From Xylographa opegraphella (Eukaryota): 26,172 bases of DNA. A model generated the notes under the pieces. That model saw only the letters and a list, made by a program, of their open reading frames with translations. It was not told the DNA's origin and ran no database searches. The first letter of the stretch is position 1; every line of letters begins with the position of its first letter. Below, piece by piece: positions 1 through 26,014 of the stretch. The stretch is taken from the NCBI GenBank assembly GCA_022813865.1, contig JALDZX010000002.1, positions 744,001 to 770,172 of the forward strand, written 5' to 3'. The position numbers and the translations under genes are program-made.

Positions 1-1051
1 GTGGCTCCAGGTGTCCGCGTGTCAGGAGAGGATATCATCATTGGAAAAACCGCTCCCATTGCGCCAGACGCCGAAGAAATGGGACAGCGGACGAAGCTGC
101 ACATCAAACGGGATGCCTCGACCCCGTTAAGATCAACTGAAAGCGGAATCGTCGACAAAGTCCTACTGACCACCAACTCCGAGGGGCTGCGATTCGTCAA
201 AGTCCGTATGCGCACCACCAAAATCCCTCAGATTGGGGACAAGTTTGCCTCGCGTCATGGACAGAAAGGTACTATCGGCATTACATACCGCCAGGAGGAC
301 ATGCCTTTTAGTGCGGAAGGTATCGTTCCCGACCTTATCATCAACCCACACGCCATTCCTTCGCGCATGACGATTGCGCATTTGATTGAATGTCAGCTCA
401 GCAAAGTTTCGTCGCTTCGGGGGTTCGAGGGCGACGCAACCCCGTTCACGGAGGTCACTGTGGACTCGGTCTCCAGACTTCTCCGCGAACATGGCTACCA
501 CTCTCGGGGGTTCGAAGTCATGTACAACGGGCACACCGGACGTAAGCTAGTAGCGCAGGTCTTCCTAGGACCTACATATTATCAGCGTCTACGGCACATG
601 GTGGACGACAAAATACACGCTCGCGCTAGAGGTCCTGTGCAGATACTAACACGGCAACCGGTGGAGGGGCGAGCACGAGATGGTGGTCTACGATTCGGAG
701 AGATGGAGCGTGACTGCATGATCTCCCACGGTGCAAGCGCTTTCTTGAAGGAGAGACTGTTCGAGGTGTCGGACGCTTTCAGGGTGCACATCTGCGATAT
801 CTGCGGGCTGATGACCCCAGTGGCGTAAGTTCACCTCGCATGCCCCCCCCACCCCAACGGTCGATCTTGGGATGCTGATTGGTCACAGGAACCTCAAGAA
901 GGCCTCGTTCGAATGCCGGCCGTGCAAGAACAAAACCAAGATCTCGCAAGTGCACATCCCGTACGCGGCCAAGCTGCTCTTCCAGGAGCTGGCGTCCATG
1001 AACATCGCTGCCAGGATGTACACGAAGCGATCGGGCATCACGGTCCGATAG
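1..1051 (+). CDS. RPB2: RNA polymerase II second-largest subunit, 3' part (5'-truncated by window). Exons <1..824 and 889..1051
   Basis: Hallmark motifs [50 protein letters not shown] and Zn-binding CDIC...CRPC. Intron 825..888 has a GTAAGT donor, GCTGAT branch and CAG acceptor. Splicing restores [53 protein letters not shown], with TAG at 1049-1051. Confidence 0.98.
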
Positions 1052-8501: not shown

Positions 8502-9773
8502 GACGATGAGGAGGAGATGGCAGCAGCGTCAATTGAAACGCGAGAGTTGCGTGAAATGTTCTGGCGGTTTGTAGGTTGGGAGGTGACAGGTCAATAATGT
8601 GTAGACGAGCTTTTCTCCCACCATGGTTGCCATGCGGGAAAAGTGACGATGCTGGGACACGCCCGCCCGCAACGGGGAACGCGGCGGCGATGACGATGCA
8701 CGGCCGCTGAGCTAAGCCCGGCTGGTGGAACGAAGTTCCGTCTTGAGCTAAGGTACGGAGGACCTTGTCTTGATTCTTCTCATCTTGTTCGGGACAGCTC
8801 CAACGCTGCCAGCTTCCTTCATTTCCACACTCGGCTTACTCATGTATCTGTACCGACCGAGAGCCCCCTCTTGTATTTGACTGCTGCGGATAGACTACTT
8901 GCACAGCCTATAGGACAACCTGAAAGCTCGAAGAAGCGTTGCGATGCGTCTCTTATCTACGTTGAACAATACATCAGACCCGGGTGCTCATTTTGTTATT
9001 TCCAACTCGTTTTCTCAAGCTGAATCGAGAGTCCTTCTTGATACCGTCGTTACTTTACTGCCAGTGAAGGATATACACCACCTAGGTTTCGATATATATG
9101 CTCCTCATGACCTTCCAAGCCCGGTGCGCTGGACTATCGTTTCCGCGTCCATTGCCTGTTTGGGATTGCGGAGGCGCTATGATACGTCGTTTCTGGCTAA
9201 TTTTTCGTGACAAGGCGACTGCTACAGTCTATCCCTTTGCTGTCCGTTGACCTAAGTGTGCCATGGCAGAGGTACTGACTGTTATCGATTATGCTTTCGT
9301 ATCTCCTGGTGTCTAAAGAATAGACTTGGATGAACCAGACGGATATACGGCGGTTACTTCTCATCATCCTTATTAACTTTGCTTGCACCTGAGGACTCTC
9401 TGAAGTCTATAGTTTATGAGTAGTCTAGTAAGTGATATTGAGTAGGCGCCGAGTTAAGAAGCACCAGAGGTGTATTATTACTTTCACCAATCTCCAGTAG
9501 CTGTAAATGTGCATACCAAATACTTTAAAAATTCCATGCGTAAGGTACCTACACTTCAACTCTTTAGGCAGTTTTCTAAGCTCTGGCTACGATGCAGAGT
9601 CGTGGCGGCGACCCGTGACAGCGTGAGAACCAAACACTAGCGTGTCCCAATCGGGGAGGCTTCAAGAACCGCTATGTCAACAAAGACTCGACAGACATCC
9701 GCAAGAAGAGGAGTGCTTTCCTTCAGTTCCAACACTGACGCCTTCCACTTTTTGTAGGAGCGCGTTGCGCAAA

Positions 9774-12766
9774 ATGGCTTCCTTAGAAGTCATTTTCTTG
9801 TCGTCCTCACCCTCGCGCTCCTTAATCACAACGACACCACCTCGGGATTTCGATCATTTTCTAATGTCATCTTCGCCTAGCTTCCCATCTCCTTCACGAA
9901 TACTTCTCAATTCGCGCAGACCGAGCCTCCAAAGTGGAAGTGGGGCGAACGCGATCCCAACGGGTATTACAACAGGCTTCACACGAGCGTCTTGCTTGCT
10001 TGATCCAGATACTATACTCGATACTACTGCCATACCATTCCGTACAGGAGCTCAATTGGGCCAATCAAAACCGTTGCGAAGTCTAAGCCCACATGCAAGT
10101 GAAAGCACTGTTGCAGAAGCCATTCATGCTGTCGTCCCACCTGTCAAGAAACCGAGAGCTCGAAAGAAATCTAAAGATGCTCATGAGGAGGGTAAAATAA
10201 CGGCTACCGAGGAAAATCATGTAGCAAATGGAGCCAAGAACCCAGCGAAGACACCCCGGGTACGGAAGAGCAAAGATGTGGGTGGAAATAAGGATGATAC
10301 GGTTCGAGGAGATCCGGCGCCTAAGAAACCCCGAATCCGAAAGAGCAAGGATGGCGTTACTATTACAGCACTTACAACCGATGCTGTCTCGACCAAGAAG
10401 CCGCGAGCAAGGAAAAGCAAGGATGGTAGCACAGAAGTTGTTGCAGTCCCAGGAGATTTACCAGTGAAGAAGTCCCGGGTAAGAAAGAGCAAGGACGAGG
10501 GCCAAACAACAATCGTGAAAACAAGGATTGTGAAGCCATCGGCTGCTCAAGGGATTGAGGATGGGGTAAAGAGTAACATGACTGGGGCGCAGAAAGAGCT
10601 ATCGGCTTTGACGGAATCTATCTCAACGGAGACTTCGAATCCCATCATTATCTCGAACGAGCCGCTTGGCCTCGATGTATATATGCCAAGGAAGAGGGAC
10701 TGGACACCCCTCAGAGATGATGAGGGCTTGAACGCAGGCAAAATGGCTGAATCAGACAATGTTTTGCCGCAAAATACTGGAAATACTCCCAGTAACATTC
10801 CGGAAGCCTACATCTTTGCAACGCTTCATGGTGATTTTAGCTATGTTCAGCCCGATAGTCTTGGCTCTGCCACTGATGCACAACGGATGGTCACTGGAGA
10901 GGCATTTACCAAGAGACAAAAACTAGAGGTATACAGCGGTTGTATTCTACATGTATTCATGTGCTGACGCTCAAATAGCTTGTTGATATACCAGGTGGTC
11001 CACCAATAATCGTAAGACCCCAAAAGGGCAGTAAAGTCCCCAAGAGGAAACCGCAGACTATAACTGCAAAAGCAACGGAAGATTTTAGACCATTAGAACC
11101 TACTGCAACTTGCTCTCCAATCCTTCAATATCTAGCTCAGTCGTCACCAGAATTCAGTATCGGCGTGCCAGTCGCGGCGAATCAGAGCGACGATATGGCT
11201 AAAAAGCGAGCACACAAGGTACCAGTGAGACTGAAGAAGTTGAAAGGCGTAGAGATCAGGGCCAAAAAGTCTGATCCTGTCCTTTTGAGCCCTGAAGAAG
11301 CCATGCAAGCAACTAGAAATCAGGACTTCCTTTTCGGGACATCTAGTCAACTTATGCGCGAGGACTCTCCTACATTCGTTCGGGAGCTGCAAGCCGCTAT
11401 TGTGGCATCTGAGTCATTCGAGAACATAATTGATTCTAACGAAGAAACCCCAAAGCCAAGATTGTCCGCATCGAGTGTGTCAGAATTAACCGCTTCAAGA
11501 AAGTTATGGTCAGAAGCCGCTCGTGATTCTCGAGGAGAATTGCTTGATGTGGAAATGATAGATCTGGCCAATACACCCAGCGCACAACAGCCGTTGAAGA
11601 ATATTATTAACACAAAATCGTCCCGGACGGAGAATCGGGAATTACCGCCACCAGTAGGCGATGGAACTTGGAAATCGATCAACGACTTTGCGACCCCTGT
11701 GACGATTCAGACGGAAACTTCTCAAGAGGTCGTCAAGATAACGGGAAATAACGTCCATGACATCGTGAAATCGATACCACGCTGTATTGCTGAGGCAGCT
11801 TTACGGCCTCGTCCAAAGAGCCGGTCTCCCGTCAAGAAATCCAAGTTATCGACCACGTCGAACGAGCCTACTAGCGAGATGCCTCGCTTTCAAGCCTATA
11901 CAAACAATGAACTCAAGAATGCGGTATCTAGCCACGGTTTCAAAGCAATAAAGAGCAGGGGTGCTATGATTGTCCTGCTGGAAAGATGCTGGGAAGGCAA
12001 AAACAGACTTGCTCTCCAGTCCTTGACCCCGAATGCAAATTTACCAAACTTAGCTCCTGTTATTGATACAGTGGTTGCAGATAAATCCAATAAGAAACCT
12101 ATCGCGAAGCGGAAAGGGCGACGCTCAAAGTTCGATGGTGTTCCCACAGTGGAAGAAGTCCTGGCACAAACTAGGGTCGAACCCAGCGTTTCTCCTGCAA
12201 AGCCTCGAGGTAGGCCACGGAAGAATGCGACGCTTCCCGCGGCAAAACAAAACGTCACTGTGGGAGTGGACAACCCAGGGACCGAGCCATTACCAAAACC
12301 AACGACGCCCACGAAAGCAAAGCAAAAAACCAAGAAGCGGCCCAAAGACGACATCGAAGACCCAAACCCTCCACCCACTCCCTCGCCACCCCGCCGCCGC
12401 ACGCCGCTCTCTCCGCCTCAAGCACTCCCTCTCACCAACACCGTTCTCGCAACACCTAAGAAAGCACCAGCGAGCACAACTTTCTCCTCCCAGACTCATC
12501 CCGACCTCTTCGCCAAGATCACCGAGGCCGTGACCACCTTCCCACCCACCCACGACCCCAAGAATCTGACCTGGTACGAAAAGATCCTGCTGTACGACCC
12601 GATCGTGCTCGAGGACCTGGCCACGTGGCTGAATATCGAGGGGTTGGGCAGAGTGGGGGTCGATGAGGAGGTGCATCCCACTGCCGTGAGGGCGTGGTGC
12701 GATGAGAAGAGCGTTTGTTGCTTGTGGAGGCAGAGTGTGAGGGGGGGGTCGAGGAAACGGTACTAG
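9774..12766 (+). CDS. SLX4: Structure-specific endonuclease subunit SLX4, about 980 aa. Exons 9774..10928 and 10979..12766
   Basis: C-terminal Slx4 domain TWYEKILLYDPIVLEDLATWLN..GLGRVG...VRAWCDEKSVCCLWR. SAP-like segment MPRFQAYTNNELKNAVSSHGFKAIKSRGAMIVLLERCWE. Motifs LLSPEEA...QDFLFGTSSQL and KRKPQTITAKAT. Intron 10929..10978 (GTATAC...GCTGAC...TAG) joins the two ORFs in frame. Start taken at AAA ATG 9774. Confidence 0.93.
10146..10496 (+). repeat. Intragenic coding repeat in SLX4: five copies of the K(K/T)(P/S)RxRKSKD motif (first copy has one extra K)
   Basis: KSKD cores at 10167, 10266, 10341, 10413 and 10485 (spacing 99, 75, 72, 72 nt), with a DNA-level AAGAGCAAGGAT-like core. Confidence 0.85.
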
Positions 12767-15585: not shown

Positions 15586-17640
15586 CTAAAGTGCGGCATC
15601 CTGGTTCTGAAGTACATATTCTATCGAGATGGCATCTTCGTGCCTACGGAAAATCAGTGAGTTCCCTTCGACAACCACCTCTTCGCCTTCTCTCATCCTA
15701 TCTATGTCCACAATCAATGGTAGCGGATCATCCTTTTGTTCATCCAATGGTAGAAGCTTGATGCCAATGCTGTAGCGCAACTTCGAGGTCTCAGGGCTGG
15801 CTGAGCTCAGAAGAAGGTTAATGTTGGAAGTTCCAGCATAGAAACTAGGCCCCAATGGAGATAATGTCGTATTCACTGGGTCGCCGCGTCGAAGTTCAGT
15901 AAAGTTTCGGTGATCATTGCTCCTGTTGCGATGGTGCGGTGCACTGAGCGACTTGCTGCTTGACGCTGGCGGCGTCATGTTGCACGAGGTCCGAGAATCA
16001 GTTGCAGGGGCTATAATTTTGACAGAATGTTGGTTTTGTGATGAGCTTGCTGTCCTTTTCGAGGAACTTATGGAGTTTTTATCTGCATTCTTCGATGGCA
16101 ATGTAATGTCTTCCTGTTTCGAGTGATTTTCAGCTGCGTTAGGCAACAACTCTCTTTCACTCATGTCACGGTCCCTTCTCTTCGACAACCTGCTTATGAT
16201 AGACCAGACAACGGATTCAAGGACGATGCTTTCGTTTGGATATTGATACAGTCTCGTTCTACCCGATTGAAGAGCTACGTCTGCTATTCTCGTCACTTCT
16301 GTCTCAAACTTGCATACGACGGATATAATGTGATACGCTTGAGCTGTATCGAGTTCATGAAAGACCTGGGGGAGTGCCCATTTTTCATATGCTCGTCCAT
16401 GCGAGTTTGCAATGAAGAATTTGCCGTGATATCCGAAGAAGAGGTTGCAAAGAAAGCATGCTTTCTTGCTAGATAAGATCACTCTTGGTGGCAATTTGCT
16501 GCGATGAAGTTCGTAATAAGCTAGAAGCTGTATTTCCGCATGAACGGGGTACTTCGAGCAATCCAAGCACCGTAATTGAGACTGCAAGGTCCTGTACTGT
16601 TTTATTTGGGCAAGAAGTTCCCGTGTTCCCGGGGCTCCATTGTTGAGTAGAGCTGTCTTATTATCAACCACTCTTTGGATTCTTGCCACCACACCATTAC
16701 TTTGAGAATCCTCGGTGGTCTTTATCGTTTTTGTGTCCGCCGCGTACTTGGTAACCTCCACTGTGATGGCTTTGAAGATGGTATACTTACGCGTTGCTTG
16801 AAGGAGCTCTTGAGGAATGGTATAGTAATAGCCTAGCTTAGAAATAGTTTTCAATATTACCGAAACGGTATCAGGGCCGATACCTGGGAGGCTGCTCAGG
16901 GCTTCGGCAAAGGGGAAATCCGCGGCAATGTGATGGGCAAATTCTGTTATCATCAGCAACGTATCGCTACCTTCTTGGGCCTCGGCTTGTGTCTGGGACA
17001 TGATTTCCAATTCCAGATTAACCCTAAGCTTTGATCCGAGTGTACAGATCTTGTCGTGTATTTAGTATGGTAGGCGAAGGTGTAAGCATCATCTGCTCGG
17101 CCAGCTTCATCATCCATGGTGCTAGTTTCCGTTTAGCTTCTTTCTTCTTCTTGATTCTGGCATGCCTCGATCTCAGCCGAGCAAGTATGCGGTTCTGGTT
17201 GAGGGCCACAATCTGTCTGCGTAGGGTTTTCAAATGTTGAGCCAGATGTACGTTGTCTGGCAATCTTCAGTCCCCATACCTCGTACTGATGAGTACTCAC
17301 TTAAAGCGACCGCATTTTCTAGGGTGGCTTTCATGACATTGAAGCCTGCTTGGACCTGATCGAGGTTACCGTGGTTAACTGCCAACCTGATGACCATGAC
17401 CTGCCCGTTCTTCTTTTCTTCTACGCAAAGTGCAATCACTTTACGGGGATCATCAGAAGAGGCAGCCCAGAAAGTCAAAATCTCAACAAGCCGCCTCTCG
17501 TGCACCAAAGATAATACTCTATTAGGACTGCAAGCATGACAAGCGGCATAGCGATCGATCGAGTTTTCTAAAGGTGGCACTGGCGTTTCATTGAGCGCTT
17601 GCAAGATAAAAATATTCTGTGCCAGGCGAAGCTGTTCCAT
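15586..17640 (-). CDS. OTT_1508-like nucleic-acid/nucleotide deaminase, about 670 aa, interrupted by one frameshift near 17024-17032 (possible pseudogene). Exons 17640..17301 and 17256..15586
   Basis: Catalytic VHAEIQLL (HAE 16542-16534) and SSKKACFLC (Cys 16458 and 16449), followed by SHGRAYEKWALP. Typical fungal N-terminal segments LSLVHERRLVEILTFWAASSDDPRKVIALCVEE...IRLAVN and RILARLRS. Intron 17300..17257 (GTGAGT...CAG). Exon 2 hits TAG at 17026-17024 and the protein continues in the +1 frame. Confidence 0.78.
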
Positions 17641-19030
17641 ATCTTACAAGGATCCGTGACGCCCAACGCACGAAGGTTCTTCGTAATGCTCTATGAACTA
17701 GACAGCATAGGCCACGTCGAGCTTGTACATGTCCGCGACGATCACGTAGAAAGTGAGATTGAAAGAAGCATAGCACACCGTTACCGAGGAGAGAAAATGT
17801 AGCGCCTCTTCGTGGGACTGTCTATCGAGAGTCTGTCTGTGAATGGAATGCACGCTAAAGGCAACTGCTGATGAAGAGACAGATACCTGGTTAGAACATG
17901 CTCGAACAAATCAACTGTGAACAGTCGTGATTAGACCATAGTTTCCTCCACTCCGTGGTTATGGCATTGCGGGACTAGCAACTGCTCAATGTGTAACATT
18001 GAGCTCTAGCCGAGTTGGGGCTCGGCATCATGATATGACAGCAACGAAATTCTAGTATCAAGCATCGAAAGCCTACCTTCGGATTTTGACCGCTGTGACT
18101 TAATGCCGGATTGGAATTTGTGGGATCCGTCAAAAGGGTACTCCTGCAATGATGCCAATATTTGCCACATCAAGCCCGCGAAATTCAGAACTGAGGAAAT
18201 CGAAGTGAAGCTGACGCAACCCCATTCGAGGTTCGCTCCTGCAGTTAATGTATACCGGCGGGCGTCTTCACGCAGTATCGGTACCTGCTTGAATCTGGCC
18301 TACTGAGATATACTGCTGATGTAGAACTTGAGTGGGAGTTTTAGGAGGGAAAGTCTCGTAAGCAAGTCACAACTTGATGAAGTCGCTCATACCTCCCCTT
18401 CTTGAAGCTGTGGCCCATAATATACGGGTGGCCATTGACCGCAAGGGGGAGATTGACTACGCAGCCGCGCCAGCGGACTTTGATCCTTGGACTTAGATCC
18501 TTGGACAGTTCCTCGATTCATCCAGTTGCTCCAAGTCACAATAATGACGTCTGTACCTTTGTCTTGTAAGTGTGAGGCCGGTCTTGTCCCAGTGTTGTGA
18601 ACATTCGCTCACTTTACATAGACGGATGATAGCTGGTCAGATTCCTACTATCCGTAAAGTGCTCATCTCCGTCCTTGGTGACGACAATGTGCGTGACATT
18701 CGAATGGACCGTACAGAGCTAGCTCCTAGCACTTACAGCGGTGTTTGCAGTGTTTGCATCGAGGTGGCTGAGAGCTAGGACTTAGGTCCTACTAGTGCCG
18801 AAGCGATACCCTCAGGTACCCAAAGCTGCAGCTGGATCGATAAGCCTGGTGTATTGTTACTCTTCAGATTTTGCACATACAGTACATATTATTCGATTTT
18901 GCTACATATCTTAGGCGCCGTTATGATATCGTTAGAGACAGTCGTATTGGTGGCATTTGGCGTCGCTCCATAGTACTTCAGGTTCAACAACTCCTTAGCC
19001 TGCAACGGTCGTTATTCATCCACCATAATC

Positions 19031-20554
19031 ATGGATGGTAAGCCACATGCTACGGTGGCGGCGCGCAATTGAGAGTATCTTGTGCTCAGAAGCTGAAAGA
19101 CTAATTTGGTTATTGGTGGCGTAGAAGAAACTCCTGCTCTGGTCATCGACAATGGGTAAGCTCGTCTTCCACTTGCATGAATGGAGGCAGGAATGTGAAG
19201 TAATTGGCTTGTCCAGCAATGCTACAGCAAGAAGTAAGCGAAGCTGACGTTTTGAAAGCTCCGGCATGTGTAAGGCTGGATTTGCTGGCGACGAAGCTCC
19301 AAAAGCTGTTTTCCGTATGTTCCCAATTTATACACCACCATCTAATGTTCTAAGAACGGCGCAGCTTCAATTGTTGGTCGGCCTCGCCATCATGGGTAGA
19401 TTTGCACAACTCCAGCTCAGACTGATGGCAACGCTAATCATGAGGTTAGTATTATGATCGGAATGGGCCAAAAGGATTCCTATGTCGGCGATGAAGCACA
19501 GATGAAACGCGGAATCTTGACCCTTAGGCATCCCATCGAGCATGGCATCGTAGTGAACTGGGACGACATGGAAAAGCTATGGCACCATACCTTCACCTAC
19601 GAGTTGCGTGTCAATCCGGAAGACCATTCTGTGCTGCTCAGCGAGTGTCCACTCAATCCGCGTGCCGACCGAGAAAAAATGACGCAAATCGTCTTCGAAT
19701 CGTTCAACGCGCCTGCATTTTATGTTGCGGTTCAAGCTGTGTTATCTCTTTATGCCTCAGGCCGGAGCACGGGCGTCGTGATCGATTCAGGGGACGGCGT
19801 CACGCATGTCGTTCCCGTGTATGAAGGCAATCCTGTATCCGAGGGGATCACTCGGATCAACATGGCCGGCCGAAATCTGACAGACTATCTCATGAAGATA
19901 TTAGCGGAACGTGGGTATCCCTTCTCGAACACAGCAGACTGGGAGATCGTGCGAGATATTAAAGAACGGCTGTGCTACGTGGCCCTCGATTATGAACAAG
20001 AGGTACAGACTGCGAACCAGAGCTCGTTGTTAGAGAAGTCGTACGAGTTACCTGATGGTCAAGTCATTACGATTGGGGCCGAGCGCTTTCGAGCACCAGA
20101 GGCTCTGTTTCAGCCGCACATGTTGGACGTCAAGAGCGATGGTGTGCATCTTTCCCTCTTCAATTCGATTCAGAAGTGTAAGCCCGCCATATGGAGAGAT
20201 GTGAGTAGATACTTGTTTATGAAGAATAGAACTCGCTAATGAATCAGATGTACAGTAATATTATCATGGTAAGCATATACACTGCATAGTAAAGACCAAT
20301 ACCGAACGCTTACACTGAAACAGTCGGGAGGCTCAACGATGTTTCAAAGCATCGAAACTAGGATGCAGAAGGAACTCATCGTCCTTGCGCCTTCATCCAT
20401 GAGGATCAAAGTCTTTGCTCCGCCAGAGCGGAAATACTCCGTCTGGATTGGAGGTTCGATTCTCGCTTCGCTCTCCACTTTCCAACAAATGTGGATAAGC
20501 AAGCAAGAGTACGATGAGGGAGGGCCCCAGGTCGTCCAGCGGAAGTGTGTTTGA
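19031..20554 (+). CDS. Divergent actin paralog, 375 aa. Exons 19031..19037, 19125..19155, 19259..19314, 19365..19395, 19450..20200, 20248..20268, 20324..20554
   Basis: Six GT-AG introns give 1128 nt, i.e. 375 aa plus stop, the exact actin length: [59 protein letters not shown]...[20 protein letters not shown]. About 86 substitutions versus canonical Pezizomycotina actin (hand count against a remembered sequence), so probably not the housekeeping act1. Confidence 0.93.
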
Positions 20555-21280: not shown

Positions 21281-22795
21281 TTAGAACTTCCGTTTCTTTT
21301 TCGCCGGTACTTTGTTCTTCTCCTCAAGCTCTCGCTTAATCCTGGCTCTATTCCGATCCGCTCTTTCCATCGAAGTCTCCCTAGCAGGCGGTGGCGATGC
21401 AGATGTCTTCAAAGACTGGCGGCGACTGCGTCCATTATCCACGACTGAAGACGGGCCGTCACCTTTTATGTTGGCGGAAGAAAGCGGTCTCTGAGCGCCT
21501 GGTTCGGTTTCCGGCAGTTTTCCTTTTTTTTGTAGGCCTCCAATCATACCCAGCTTTGGGCGTGCTTTGTCTGCCGTAGCAAGTGGCGACATATTGTCCT
21601 CAAGCTGTCCTGCAATTCGCTTGGGGAACTCGCCTTCGCCTGCAATACTTGGGCTACGCGCAGTCTGTGGAGGTATTTGTGATGCTTGCTGTCTTTTCCC
21701 GCCAAGTATACCGAGTTTTTTCGGGGTGTTGGGCATCAAAACTGGCTTGGACTCGGTATCTTTATGTTCTTGGGTTACTGGCCCCTCCAAATCATCATCT
21801 GAGGTTTCGGAGCCCGAGACTGTTGAATCAGATACCGCACGCTGCCCGTGCTGCCTTGTAGATTCAGCGGCATTGCTTTCTCGAGTTTGACTGGTCTGTC
21901 TCTTCGTCTGGTCAACAATCGTTTCTTTCGCTCTCCGCGGACTACCAGCTTGGAATCCTTCTACGTCGTTTGTGAAGCCTCTCAAGGACAAGGACTCAAC
22001 TATATCCTTTTGGGGTTTTGTAGATGATTCAGTTTCCAGCTCATCTGATCTGACATTATCATGGGGTCTATTTGGCAAATCATGAACGGTCGATGATCCT
22101 GTCTCGAAGAGTTGACTACAAATACTCTCTATATCTGTATTTCCAGTAGCAATCTTGACTCCATTTCGCCAATTCTGGATGTTGAATTCGTTAAGACCTC
22201 GCACTGAGGCCATAACCAACTCACGTGCATTGGTCTTTGACCTCCTCGGGGGCGCTGCGCTTGGAAACACTACAGTCAATTCGATACCGGCAGATTCTAG
22301 CTTCTCGGTGAGTCTGTTGATGACATGATCTTTCTCTTTGAGGTGAGCAAGCAGGGAATCGACTTCGGATTTTGCGGACAATAGTTCATAAATGCAAGGC
22401 AGGAGAAAAGTTGAAGTCAGTATTTCTTGAGACGCACATGATAAGTGAAAGCACCATACCAAAAGTGGCAAGGGGCTGGGAAGTACGACAGTGGCCTCTA
22501 ATGTGATGCTTGTATGCGCAGCTATGGATTGAAGCTTCAAGCTGGTCTTAGGTTGGCCCTTCAAAGCTTTCTCGATCTCTTGCAGTAGTTTCATCAACTG
22601 GCCTGGACCTTCGCTAGGATCAATGCTGACGTTTTCATCGAAAGCTCTCCTGATTATTTGCCGTCGATCAAGCGACTCAATCCACAGATGTGTAAGGTCG
22701 GTGACCTGTATAGTATAGGCAGAAGTGGATATGTCACGCTTGACAAGAAGCGGCAAAGCGTGACTGACTGGCAGACGATTCCATTCGGAAGACAT
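21281..22795 (-). CDS. XLF/Cernunnos (Nej1-like) NHEJ factor, about 504 aa (possible in-frame 48-nt intron 21949..21902)
   Basis: N-terminal XLF head domain W..LPV...LPLLVK....AYTIQVTDLTHLWIESLDRRQIIRRA.....SIDPSE...QL..LL, coiled coil LLAHLKEKDHVINRLTEKLESAGIEL, and fungal C-terminal ...RELEEK..PAKKKRKF (Ku-binding/NLS-like). ATG at 22795; the ORF-track start at 22861 is a non-ATG codon. Confidence 0.88.
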   Translation of the reverse strand: MSSEWNRLPVSHALPLLVKRDISTSAYTIQVTDLTHLWIESLDRRQIIRRAFDENVSIDPSEGPGQLMKLLQEIEKALKGQPKTSLKLQSIAAHTSITLEATVVLPSPLPLLVWCFHLSCASQEILTSTFLLPCIYELLSAKSEVDSLLAHLKEKDHVINRLTEKLESAGIELTVVFPSAAPPRRSKTNARELVMASVRGLNEFNIQNWRNGVKIATGNTDIESICSQLFETGSSTVHDLPNRPHDNVRSDELETESSTKPQKDIVESLSLRGFTNDVEGFQAGSPRRAKETIVDQTKRQTSQTRESNAAESTRQHGQRAVSDSTVSGSETSDDDLEGPVTQEHKDTESKPVLMPNTPKKLGILGGKRQQASQIPPQTARSPSIAGEGEFPKRIAGQLEDNMSPLATADKARPKLGMIGGLQKKGKLPETEPGAQRPLSSANIKGDGPSSVVDNGRSRRQSLKTSASPPPARETSMERADRNRARIKRELEEKNKVPAKKKRKF

Positions 22796-23182
22796 TGTAA
22801 CATGTCTAATCACGAGAGCGATAAGCAACGCGAAATGCTGATGCAAAGGCACAGCGTGCAAAAGCCGACAATGTTTGTCACAAGCTTAAAGGAGGTAACA
22901 GTTTCGTTAATGAACCAGCAAAGCACAATAGCAACATTTGTGCAGCAAGACTTGCAAGAATTCCACAACAGTCTCCAGCCTATATGTGCATGGACTTCCT
23001 AGACAGATAGGAGGTGATAAGTATTCCCACGGTCGAGTTTGAGGACTAGATTAGTCTAGCGTACTTTTCAGCGCAAACAACCTAAATTTCTAGCCTCTTT
23101 TGCCCACCTCACTTAGTGCCAAAATTTTCATGTTTACTCCGGCCGCCTTTACCATCTAACACTCCTCGTAGCCAGACTGGGC

Positions 23183-25367: not shown

Positions 25368-26014
25368 TTACGGCAGGGCAATGCACTCGATCTCGACATC
25401 CACCCCCTTCGGCAACTGCTTCACAGCGACACAACTCCTCGCCGGCCGCGTGGTGAAATGCTTCTCATACTCGCCGTTCATCTCGGCGAAGTTCGCCATG
25501 TCGGTGATGAAGACGTTCACCTTCACCACCTTGTCCATCGACGAGCCCGCCGCGGCGAGGATGGCGCGGATGTTGGCAATGCACGCCGCTGTCTTCTCCG
25601 CGATGCTGGCGGACGCCGGTAGCACTTCTCCGCTGGCGGTTGCGGGGATCTGGCCTGATACGTAGACCGTGCTTGGGGTGACTATTGCTTGCGACTGTTT
25701 CGGCGGGTGTGGTGGTTAGAATAGTGGATGGCTGGAGCGCGAGCGTGGGTGGATTGGTATACGTACATAAGGACCGGCGACTATAGCGGAGCATATTAGC
25801 TACAGCTCGTTTCCTGTGAGTGGACAAGCTGGAGGCTCGTATACATACCAGGGCACGCATCCTTGGTATAGATCTTTTTGATGTCAGCCATTGGGTGCGG
25901 TGTAGTATGTAAGCGGGCGACTGGCGAGATAGGTCGGCGCGCTGGGGTTGCAATTGAGCGTAGAAGTCCAATCTGGCAATGTACGGAAGGTCTGGCTACG
26001 GTACGGAGGAGCAT
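25368..26014 (-). CDS. RidA/YjgF/YER057c/UK114 family 2-iminopropanoate deaminase (Mmf1/Hmf1-like), 168 aa with mitochondrial presequence. Exons 26014..25849, 25780..25767, 25694..25368
   Basis: Spliced ACPVAGPYSQAI...VYVSGQIP...VVKVNVFITDMANFAEMNGEYEKHF..RPARSCVAVKQLPKGVDVEIECIA, which includes the catalytic Arg in PARS. Introns 25848..25781 and 25766..25695 flank a 14-nt micro-exon. Confidence 0.93.

What the first reader, a model, noticed from the sequence alone, without database searches (positions are those of the whole stretch)
19031..20554. Intact but highly divergent second actin gene in a filamentous ascomycete
Seen: seven exons splice to exactly 375 codons with no stops or indels. 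Nucleotide-binding and catalytic residues D11, S14, G15, K18, H73, Q137, D154, D157, H161 and G302 are all retained. About 86 residues differ from canonical Pezizomycotina actin (about 77% identity, hand count against a remembered sequence). Codon usage lacks the strong bias of housekeeping actin (TTA, CTA, ATA, AGA are used). Known: ascomycetes usually carry one extremely conserved actin. Inference: this is a duplicated, neofunctionalised actin still under purifying selection at the ATP site, with a canonical act1 elsewhere in the genome.
Basis: partly seen in the sequence, partly recalled or inferred. Interest (0 to 1): 0.85.

Follow-up and report, generated by a model that had tools for sequence, protein, structure and literature searches.

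The report
Divergent second actin of lichen fungi
This is an intact, fast-evolving second actin gene, kept alongside the normal actin in a small group of lichen-forming fungi (Xylographa, Lambiella, Trapelia); such divergent actins are known in other lineages, but searches found no paper describing this clade.

Summary
Seven exons (19031-20554, +) splice through six GT..AG introns to 375 codons. All ten named nucleotide-site residues are kept. Identity to a canonical fungal actin is 286 of 370 (77%), and there is no codon bias (Nc 59.5).

The window matches Xylographa opegraphella: NCBI's truncated "actin" model equals residues 44-375 exactly. Orthologues occur in 8 named Xylographa species, Lambiella insularis and Trapelia coarctata. 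They form one clade (100/100 support, stem 0.14) inside fungal actins, not among Arps.

The only run that holds the gene (about 31 Mb of contigs) also carries one separate 10.65-kb contig with a canonical-type actin. So this is a second actin.

Four introns sit at the same codon and phase as in a canonical lichen-fungus-like actin gene, which points to DNA-level duplication. A fifth is an extra intron seen only in Xylographa.

The gene changes about 3-6 times more slowly than its fast-evolving neighbour XLF, but at least 10 times faster than canonical actin. That fits purifying selection on a remodelled protein.

Changes cluster in the W-loop, the hydrophobic plug, subdomain 3 and the C-terminus. 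Y69H is the same change as in latrunculin-resistant Chlamydomonas NAP1.

Expression and function are untested. Verdict: a new member of a known kind, of moderate interest.

The parts
19031..19037 (+). exon 1 (ATG plus 4 nt; codons 1-2 and first base of codon 3)
   Evidence: followed by GTAAGC
19038..19124 (+). intron 1 (87 nt, GT..AG)
19125..19155 (+). exon 2 (31 nt, to the second base of codon G13)
   Evidence: same length, end codon and phase as exon 2 of canonical locus L001
19156..19258 (+). intron 2 (103 nt), position shared with canonical actin
19259..19314 (+). exon 3 (56 nt; S14-G15-M-C-K18 phosphate loop)
19315..19364 (+). intron 3 (50 nt), position shared with canonical actin
19365..19395 (+). 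exon 4 (31 nt)
19396..19449 (+). intron 4 (54 nt), position shared with canonical actin
19450..20200 (+). exon 5 (751 nt; residues 42/43-292; D-loop, H73, Q137, D154-H161, W-loop, hydrophobic plug)
   Evidence: Pfam Actin 2.5e-75; 100% to NCBI 'actin [Xylographa opegraphella]'
20201..20247 (+). intron 5 (47 nt, phase 0 between D292 and M293); extra intron absent from canonical actin and from the Trapelia-group orthologues
20248..20268 (+). exon 6 (21 nt, residues 293-299)
   Evidence: agrees with the NCBI model
20269..20323 (+). intron 6 (55 nt), position shared with canonical actin
20324..20554 (+). exon 7 (residues 300-375 plus TGA)
21284..22885 (-). neighbouring XLF (NHEJ factor) gene; lies on the same contig as the actin paralogue across Xylographaceae and served here as a rate yardstick. 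It is not part of the actin gene.
   Evidence: Pfam XLF 1.9e-25; matching contig lengths

Best explanation
The gene encodes a second actin that is kept by selection and evolves fast. I call it actin2 here. It is a true actin, not an Arp. It arose by DNA-level duplication of the ordinary actin gene in an ancestor of the lichen-forming families Xylographaceae and Trapeliaceae, and has been kept next to the canonical actin ever since. Shown here: the intact gene, the clade, the shared introns, the second canonical-type gene in the same run, and the uneven, constrained pattern of substitution. Inferred: the ATP-binding and hydrolysis core, the D-loop (residues 43-59 unchanged) and the 331-364 segment are untouched, so the protein most likely still binds and hydrolyses ATP and still assembles into filaments, alone or mixed with canonical actin. 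Its W-loop (165-179), hydrophobic plug and subdomain 3 surface (265-330), C-terminus (H371Q, F375V) and cleft mouth (Y69H, D184N, R206W) are rebuilt. Its filament stability, partner binding (for example profilin, through loss of D286 and D288) and small-molecule sensitivity should therefore differ from canonical actin. That would make it a specialised isoform, not a redundant copy.
For: Gene model and retained residues. Exons 5-7 equal NCBI's model.

It is an actin. Pfam Actin scores 2.5e-75. All 60 best PDB matches shown, of 154 matched, are actins at 401-433 bits. It sits inside the fungal actin clade (100/100) in an IQ-TREE tree of 45 rows and in a FastTree tree of 97 rows.

It forms a clade. 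All 18 divergent rows (29 in the larger tree) are monophyletic at 100/100 with a stem of 0.14. Seventeen of 250 exon-5 sites are diagnostic. Named members are X. opegraphella, carneopallida, bjoerkii, vitiligo, soralifera, parallela, trunciseda and pallens, Lambiella insularis and Trapelia coarctata.

It is a second copy. Run X1 holds 100% of the gene's sampled words and totals 30.6 Mb of contigs. It has exactly one record matching the canonical locus L001:3346-4399: a 10,650-base contig at depth 159 with 191 other letters. Of the 34 X1 differences listed, 32 fall on third codon positions (with the frame). The window gene itself is only 68% identical to L001 in DNA, so it cannot be that record.

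The duplication was at DNA level. Introns 2, 3, 4 and 6 lie at the same codon and phase as in L001.

There is constraint. Identity to X. opegraphella is 93-96% within Xylographa, 88% to Lambiella and 80% to Trapelia. For the adjacent XLF gene the figures are 58-70%, 42% and 41%. Substitutions are very uneven: 0 of 17 in residues 43-59 and 0 of 34 in 331-364, against 10 of 15 in 165-179 and 20 of 34 in 265-298.

The locus is stable.
Against: No expression evidence exists: no RNA run is listed as holding the gene. dN/dS was not computed because no orthologue DNA could be fetched, so constraint rests on protein-level comparison with one neighbouring gene.

The canonical-type contig is assigned to the same organism only by the run's size and by its being the single match. 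Its depth was not compared with the depth of the window's contig.

Polymerisation is not tested. The plug is less hydrophobic (residues 266-272 read M-L-D-V-K-S-D). Residue 169 in the W-loop is N, I, F or S in different members. Both could mean weak polymerisation or none.

The rate stays high within the genus (up to 7% amino-acid difference between Xylographa species), which also fits partly relaxed constraint.
Confidence: 0.78

Rival explanations
1. Toxin-insensitive back-up actin, working like Chlamydomonas NAP1. The paralogue keeps filaments going when canonical actin is poisoned by a latrunculin-type or other cleft-binding metabolite from competitors or from the lichen community. This is a more specific version of the best explanation, not an alternative to its being a second actin.
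For: Tyr69 is one of five residues reported to hydrogen-bond latrunculin (passages read in preprint 10.1101/2025.01.24.634782). It is replaced in every one of the 18 divergent rows: H in Xylographa, Q or N elsewhere. A review states that NAP1 carries Y to H at the equivalent site and forms latrunculin-resistant filaments (passages read in PMC12444908). D184, which is half of the yeast LAT-A-resistant allele act1-117 (R183A, D184A; PMC2139767), is N or S in the whole clade. R206W/F lies next to E207.
Against: There is no enrichment. Two of the 17 diagnostic sites fall among 11 latrunculin-linked positions out of 250; the hypergeometric P for two or more is 0.17. D157, T186, E207, R210, D211, K213 and E214 are all kept. 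I know of no latrunculin-like compound from lichens (from my own knowledge, not searched). No biosynthetic genes were seen among the ORFs scanned in the window.
Confidence: 0.15
2. An actin-fold protein that no longer polymerises and has a monomer-type role, for example in a nuclear or chromatin complex or as a regulator of actin-binding proteins.
For: Changes are heavy in the plug region (20 of 34 differences in residues 265-298), in the W-loop (10 of 15 in 165-179) and at the C-terminal residue (F375V). By my recollection of F-actin structures, these regions contribute to filament contacts.
Against: The D-loop (0 of 17 changes in residues 43-59) and residues 331-364 (0 of 34) are untouched. 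Their main known roles are in filament and partner contacts. Overall identity of 77% is far above any Arp.
Confidence: 0.1
3. It is the only actin of the organism, the result of lineage-wide acceleration.
For: No whole genome was held for the window, so the assembly itself could not be searched.
Against: Run X1 carries a separate canonical-type actin contig whose listed differences from another lichen-fungus-like actin are 32 of 34 at third codon positions.
Confidence: 0.03
4. A decaying or silent duplicate (incipient pseudogene).
For: There is no codon bias (Nc 59.5), the rate is high, and no RNA evidence is available.
Against: The frame is intact where a complete model could be read: the window's seven exons and Trapelia's full-length 385-residue model, which lie on opposite sides of the clade's deepest split. 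Substitutions are strongly non-uniform. Divergence is much lower than in the functional neighbour XLF.
Confidence: 0.04

Closest known systems
Canonical Pezizomycotina actin (act1/actA type; e.g. P0035, Orbilia oligospora actin; yeast Act1, PDB 1YAG)
   Same: 375 residues and collinear without indels. Same Pfam family. All nucleotide-site residues checked are identical. The D-loop and residues 331-364 are identical. Introns 2, 3, 4 and 6 lie at the same codon and phase as in a Lecanoromycete-like canonical gene.
   Different: 84 of 370 residues differ, where canonical fungal actins differ from each other by a few per cent at most. There is one extra intron and no codon bias. The branch is at least 10 times longer in the tree. 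The W-loop, plug, residues 283-330 and the C-terminus are rebuilt.
Chlamydomonas NAP1 (divergent, latrunculin-resistant second actin)
   Same: It is a second, divergent actin kept beside a conventional one. It carries the same Tyr-to-His change at the latrunculin-contacting tyrosine (review PMC12444908, passages read).
   Different: The origin is independent by inference: this clade arises inside fungal actins, though NAP1 itself was not in my trees. Drug resistance and inducible expression are demonstrated for NAP1 and untested here.
Divergent actins listed in other lineages, including 'Fusarium fungi (e.g., UPK93335)', a sponge and Chromodoris nudibranchs (review PMC12444908)
   Same: The same kind of object: an extra actin with substitutions near the nucleotide cleft. 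The Fusarium entry shows that a divergent actin in a filamentous ascomycete is already in print.
   Different: I could not fetch the Fusarium protein, so its relation to this clade is untested. No non-Lecanoromycete name appeared among the clade's clusters.
Arp1/centractin and other actin-related proteins
   Same: Actin fold and the same Pfam family.
   Different: All 60 best PDB matches shown are actins, and the gene is nested within crown fungal actins. Arps are much more distant and carry insertions, and this gene has none.

Membership tests
Actin sensu stricto (Pfam PF00022, conventional actin lineage) | Actin domain detected | tested here: met
   Pfam Actin E 2.5e-75 on the exon-5 ORF alone
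Actin sensu stricto (Pfam PF00022, conventional actin lineage) | Collinear with 375-residue actin, without the insertions typical of Arps | tested here: met
   375 codons; position-by-position comparison with P0035 needs no gap over residues 1-370
Actin sensu stricto (Pfam PF00022, conventional actin lineage) | Nucleotide-binding and hydrolysis residues (D11, S14, G15, K18, Q137, D154, G156, D157, G158, H161, G301-G302, K336) and H73 | tested here: met
   all present
Actin sensu stricto (Pfam PF00022, conventional actin lineage) | Groups with actins and not with an Arp clade | tested here: met
   all 60 PDB hits shown are actins; nested in the fungal actin clade at 100/100. No Arp sequence was placed in the trees.
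Actin sensu stricto (Pfam PF00022, conventional actin lineage) | Extreme sequence conservation of conventional actin (roughly 90% or more between fungi; figure recalled) | tested here: not met
   77.3% to P0035; hence 'divergent actin'
Actin sensu stricto (Pfam PF00022, conventional actin lineage) | Forms filaments | not testable with these tools
   needs protein biochemistry or imaging
NAP1-like toxin-insensitive divergent actins (a functional class, not a clade) | Substitution of the latrunculin-contacting Tyr69 | tested here: met
   H69 here; H, Q or N in all 18 divergent rows; NAP1 has His at this site according to the review
NAP1-like toxin-insensitive divergent actins (a functional class, not a clade) | Filaments resist latrunculin; the gene is induced when canonical F-actin is lost | not testable with these tools
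Self-resistance copy inside a biosynthetic gene cluster | Co-located with PKS, NRPS or tailoring genes | tested here: not met
   The 14 long ORFs scanned, from 19 kb upstream to 5.6 kb downstream, give RPB2, Slx4, an OTT_1508-like deaminase, XLF and L-PSP, and no biosynthetic family. Some of these ORFs had no Pfam match, and ORFs under 100 aa were not scanned.
Arp1/centractin | Closer to Arp1 than to actin | tested here: not met

The most novel reading that the evidence does not exclude
Lichen-forming Trapeliales/Baeomycetales keep a NAP1-like toxin-proof spare actin. Its rebuilt cleft mouth (Y69H/Q/N, D184N, R206W/F), W-loop and profilin face would let the fungus keep polarised growth when canonical actin is poisoned by actin-targeting metabolites made by competitors, by lichen-associated microbes or by the fungus itself. 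That would be a convergent fungal counterpart of the Chlamydomonas IDA5/NAP1 system, and a pointer to an unknown actin toxin in lichen communities.
Probability: 0.12. Interest if true: 0.8.

Novelty: new member of a known kind. Interest (0 to 1): 0.45.

Why it matters
Filamentous ascomycetes are usually treated as single-actin organisms (stated from my own knowledge), and their actin is used as a housekeeping marker. This work defines a clade of lichen fungi that has kept a 77%-identical second actin, apparently since before Xylographaceae and Trapeliaceae split.

The paralogue is a natural mutagenesis experiment. It shows which actin surfaces can change (W-loop, plug, profilin face, C-terminus, cleft mouth) while the ATPase core and D-loop stay fixed.

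It is also a candidate for isoform specialisation or drug insensitivity in fungi.

On the practical side, public gene models for it are truncated or mis-spliced (332, 338, 269 and 409 residues). It could also confound actin-based marker work in these taxa.

Tried and rejected
Whole-genome search: no genome is held for this window.

RNA evidence: no RNA holder is listed for the gene, so splicing and expression could not be checked. This says nothing about expression.

The best 80 kept were all canonical-type actins (77% identity or less), with none from the divergent clade. No orthologue DNA was obtained, so no dN/dS and no look at neighbours in distant relatives.

Profile search with the divergent clade: the top of the list was filled with tandem or fused animal and plant actin models. 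Only one further clade cluster (P0179) appeared.

Looking for a named canonical Xylographa actin through cluster look-ups: 10 clusters were examined, and 40 of 210 and 40 of 203 members were read in the two large ones. The only species name seen was a Xanthoria MAG. No Xylographa canonical actin was seen, which the sampling cannot exclude.

Self-resistance gene in a biosynthetic cluster: considered, but no biosynthetic gene was found among the ORFs scanned.

Latrunculin-site enrichment: tested and not significant (P = 0.17).

Profilin contact list from PMC2199984: the terms were not found in the held text. I used the ion-pair table of PMC3464195 instead.

Earlier scan notes: nothing on this genome or on fungal actin paralogues, only Asgard, viral and Naegleria actins.

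Literature searches for a description of this clade found none. In the Xylographa genome paper PMC9098629, the term 'actin' matched only 'acting' and 'active'.

Structure prediction, fold search and complex prediction were not run. At 77% identity to solved actins they would not change the reading, and the spliced full-length protein could not be handed to those tools as a single reference.

Full report
**1. What is in the sequence**

On the + strand, seven exons join to 1128 nt: 19031-19037, 19125-19155, 19259-19314, 19365-19395, 19450-20200, 20248-20268 and 20324-20554. That gives 375 codons plus TGA and no internal stop. The six introns are 87, 103, 50, 54, 47 and 55 nt, and each runs GT..AG.

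The large exon alone scores Pfam Actin at E 2.5e-75. So are G156, G158, G301, K336 and C374.

Against a canonical Pezizomycotina actin (P0035) the protein is identical at 286 of 370 comparable positions (77.3%), without any indel. P0035's last residues are a mis-modelled tail and were left out of the count.

The effective number of codons is 59.5. For the same exon it is 48-53 in three Lecanoromycete-like canonical actin loci and 28-40 in three other fungal ones.

**2. Whose gene it is, and who else has it**

Exon 5 is 100% identical to NCBI's 'actin [Xylographa opegraphella]' (P0001). That 332-residue model equals residues 44-375 of my model exactly. NCBI's splicing of exons 5-7 therefore agrees with mine, and NCBI's model simply lacks the four small 5' exons.

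The same 90% cluster holds proteins named for X. bjoerkii, X. vitiligo, X. soralifera, X. parallela, X. trunciseda and X. pallens. Separate clusters hold X. carneopallida (96% identity), Lambiella insularis (88%) and Trapelia coarctata. The Trapelia protein is a full-length 385-residue model, 302 of 375 residues (80.5%) identical to the window protein. Five further clusters of the clade are unnamed or carry only a generic 'actin' label.

Every other hit in two database searches was a canonical-type actin at 76-77% identity or less, or a fused-model artefact. Each search scored only the 8000 candidates sharing the most words and listed 120.

**3. Actin, not Arp, and one clade**

All 60 best PDB matches shown (of 154 matched) are actins, at 401-433 bits.

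In a FastTree tree of 97 rows, the 29 divergent rows are one side of a branch at 100. In an IQ-TREE tree (LG+C20) of 45 rows, which I chose from 143 unique sequences, the 18 divergent rows are monophyletic at 100/100 on a stem of 0.14 substitutions per site. They sit inside a 100/100 clade of fungal actins.

The clade's exact sister is not resolved, because canonical sequences differ by only about 0.003-0.01. In the FastTree tree it falls with canonical actins that carry the GYPFS variant (local support 92). The only species name seen in that group's clusters is a Xanthoria MAG.

The path from the fungal-actin node to the window protein is about 0.36 substitutions per site. For canonical tips it is about 0.01-0.03. 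Two deep subclades exist: Xylographa with Lambiella, and Trapelia with unnamed records.

**4. Is it a second actin?**

No genome is held for the window. I therefore looked for runs holding the gene.

One run, X1, holds 100% of the sampled words. It is flagged as a possible source of the window's DNA, so it is not independent of the assembly. It consists of 30.6 Mb of contigs, about one ascomycete genome.

A metagenome scan gave canonical actin loci. L001-L003 carry the Lecanoromycete-like variant. Laying X1 on L001:2700-4800 at 80% likeness returned exactly one record. It is a 10,650-base contig at depth 159 that covers L001:3346-4399 with 191 other letters, plus a short upstream exon across an intron of different length.

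Of the 34 X1 differences that the tool listed, 32 are at third codon positions and 2 are first-position C>T (269 more places, counted over all three runs, were not shown). This is the pattern of a conserved canonical protein.

The window gene is only 68% identical to L001 in DNA, so it cannot be that record. The window contains no other actin ORF.

The window's organism therefore very probably has a canonical actin elsewhere. The caveat is that assignment to the same organism rests on the run's size and on the single match. I could not compare depths.

**5. How it arose**

Introns 2, 3, 4 and 6 interrupt the same codons in the same phase as in the canonical locus L001. These are G13 in phase 2, P32 in phase 1, G42 in phase 2, and after M299 in phase 0. 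That indicates duplication of genomic DNA and not retroposition. I could not place L001's first intron with confidence.

Intron 5 (20201-20247, between D292 and M293) has no counterpart in L001. It is read into by all 4 unspliced Xylographa ORF calls I inspected (P0185, P0188, P0189, P0190). It is absent from all 10 Trapelia-group ORF calls inspected, which run straight through to intron 6. It thus looks like an intron gained in the Xylographa lineage. Its state in Lambiella is unclear from its model.

**6. Constraint**

Orthologue DNA could not be obtained, so dN/dS was not computed. I used three indirect lines.

- *Intactness.* Complete frames could be read for the window gene (seven exons) and for Trapelia (a full-length 385-residue model). 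These two lie on opposite sides of the clade's deepest split.
- *Uneven substitution.* Residues 43-59 show 0 changes of 17 and residues 331-364 show 0 of 34. Residues 165-179 show 10 of 15, residues 265-298 show 20 of 34, and residues 299-330 show 13 of 32. Across 18 divergent and 22 canonical rows, 141 of 250 exon-5 sites are identical everywhere.
- *A yardstick.* The adjacent XLF gene is 58-70% identical between X. opegraphella and five other Xylographa species, 42% to Lambiella and 41% to Trapelia. The paralogue is 93-96% (three species compared), 88% and 80% identical.

A neutral sequence should diverge at least as fast as XLF, so the paralogue is under clear purifying selection. It still evolves at least 10 times faster than canonical actin.

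**7. Stable locus**

Some of those contigs are only 11.7 and 20.6 kb long. In Trapelia the two genes are on different contigs.

The window's other scanned ORFs encode an RPB2 C-terminus, Slx4, an OTT_1508-like deaminase and an L-PSP protein. No biosynthetic gene was seen.

**8. What changed, and the likely mechanism**

Seventeen exon-5 sites separate all divergent rows from all canonical rows. They are 60, 69, 85, 110, 115, 172, 174, 184, 206, 223, 266, 270, 272, 276, 278, 288 and 291.

Outside exon 5, the members with data share further changes: G295S (not in Lambiella), Y306F, A310E/D311T, T318I/A319V, I330F, S368Q, H371Q and F375L/V.

The following region assignments come from my own knowledge of actin structure.

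- The changes concentrate in the W-loop, in the hydrophobic plug with the neighbouring subdomain 4 loop, on the subdomain 3 surface and at the C-terminus.
- The phosphate loops, the D-loop and the 331-364 segment are untouched.

Two points have support in papers I read.

- *Profilin face.* D286 and D288 are among the acidic actin partners of profilin ion pairs (PMC3464195, Table 2 passage read). D288 is lost in the whole clade, and D286 is K in Xylographa.
- *Latrunculin pocket.* Tyr69 is one of the residues reported to hydrogen-bond latrunculin (preprint 10.1101/2025.01.24.634782, passages read). D184 is part of the LAT-A-resistant yeast allele act1-117 (PMC2139767, passages read). Both are replaced in the whole clade. 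The Xylographa state, His69, is the change that a review attributes to latrunculin-resistant NAP1 (PMC12444908, passages read).

The latrunculin-linked positions are not enriched among the diagnostic sites, however: 2 of 17 against 11 of 250, P = 0.17. D157, T186, E207 and R210 are kept.

My reading is an ATP-binding actin isoform that probably forms filaments, with altered filament contacts, partner binding and drug pocket. Its function is specialised but still unknown. The NAP1-like toxin-proof reading is the boldest one the data allow, and I give it about 12-15%.

**9. Novelty**

The sequence is public and labelled 'actin', but its models are truncated or mis-spliced. Four literature searches and a term look-up in the Xylographa genome paper found no description of a second actin in Lecanoromycetes.

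Divergent second actins as a kind are well known: NAP1, Plasmodium actin II, and sponge and nudibranch actins. The 2025 review also lists a Fusarium example, so a filamentous ascomycete with a divergent actin is not unprecedented.

I rate it a new member of a known kind, with interest 0.45.

Noticed in passing
window 20201-20247: A 47-nt phase-0 intron between codons 292 and 293. It is absent from the canonical actin locus L001 and from all 10 Trapelia-group ORF calls inspected, and present in all 4 unspliced Xylographa ORF calls inspected. It looks like a lineage-specific intron gain in an actin gene.
   Followed up: partly
window 19031-19449: Public gene models of this paralogue miss or mis-splice the four tiny 5' exons: X. 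opegraphella 332 aa, X. vitiligo 409 aa with a retained intron, X. carneopallida 338 aa frame-shifted at the 3' end, Lambiella 269 aa. The family is mis-annotated throughout.
   Followed up: partly
window 15589-17061 (-): A 491-codon ORF with an OTT_1508-like deaminase domain (Pfam PF14441, E 4.9e-20) about 2 kb upstream of the actin gene. An unannotated 137-codon ORF lies between them at 17233-17643 (-).
   Followed up: no
window 9627-12763 (+): Two adjacent long ORFs (446 and 595 codons). The second ends in an Slx4 endonuclease-scaffold domain (E 6.9e-20). They are probably one Slx4 gene split by an intron or a frame change.
   Followed up: no
window 1-825 (+), 21284-22885 (-), 25371-25715 (-): Housekeeping and DNA-repair neighbours: the RPB2 C-terminus (domains 6 and 7), the XLF NHEJ factor and an L-PSP/RidA-type protein. 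XLF evolves very fast in this group, at 58-70% identity within the genus Xylographa.
   Followed up: partly
clusters of P0018/P0192 and P0063: The Trapelia-side subclade has two well-separated sublineages (95/92 and 99/96 support). Some of their members come from the same sources, and some share contig lengths. This may be a further duplication of the paralogue or just several related species.
   Followed up: no
L001:3339-4399, run X2: Run X2 laid 24 records on the canonical actin locus, at two depth classes (about 350 and about 3-5). It evidently holds several fungi, unlike X1, which laid one record.
   Followed up: no
residue 75 of the protein (window exon 5): Position 75 is Ile in Xylographa, where canonical Pezizomycotina actins in my set have Val. 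A review (PMC12444908) reports that Val75 blocks phalloidin staining in many ascomycetes and that reverting it to Ile restores staining. The paralogue might therefore bind phalloidin where the canonical actin does not. Lambiella keeps Val, and the Trapelia group has T, I or Y.
   Followed up: no
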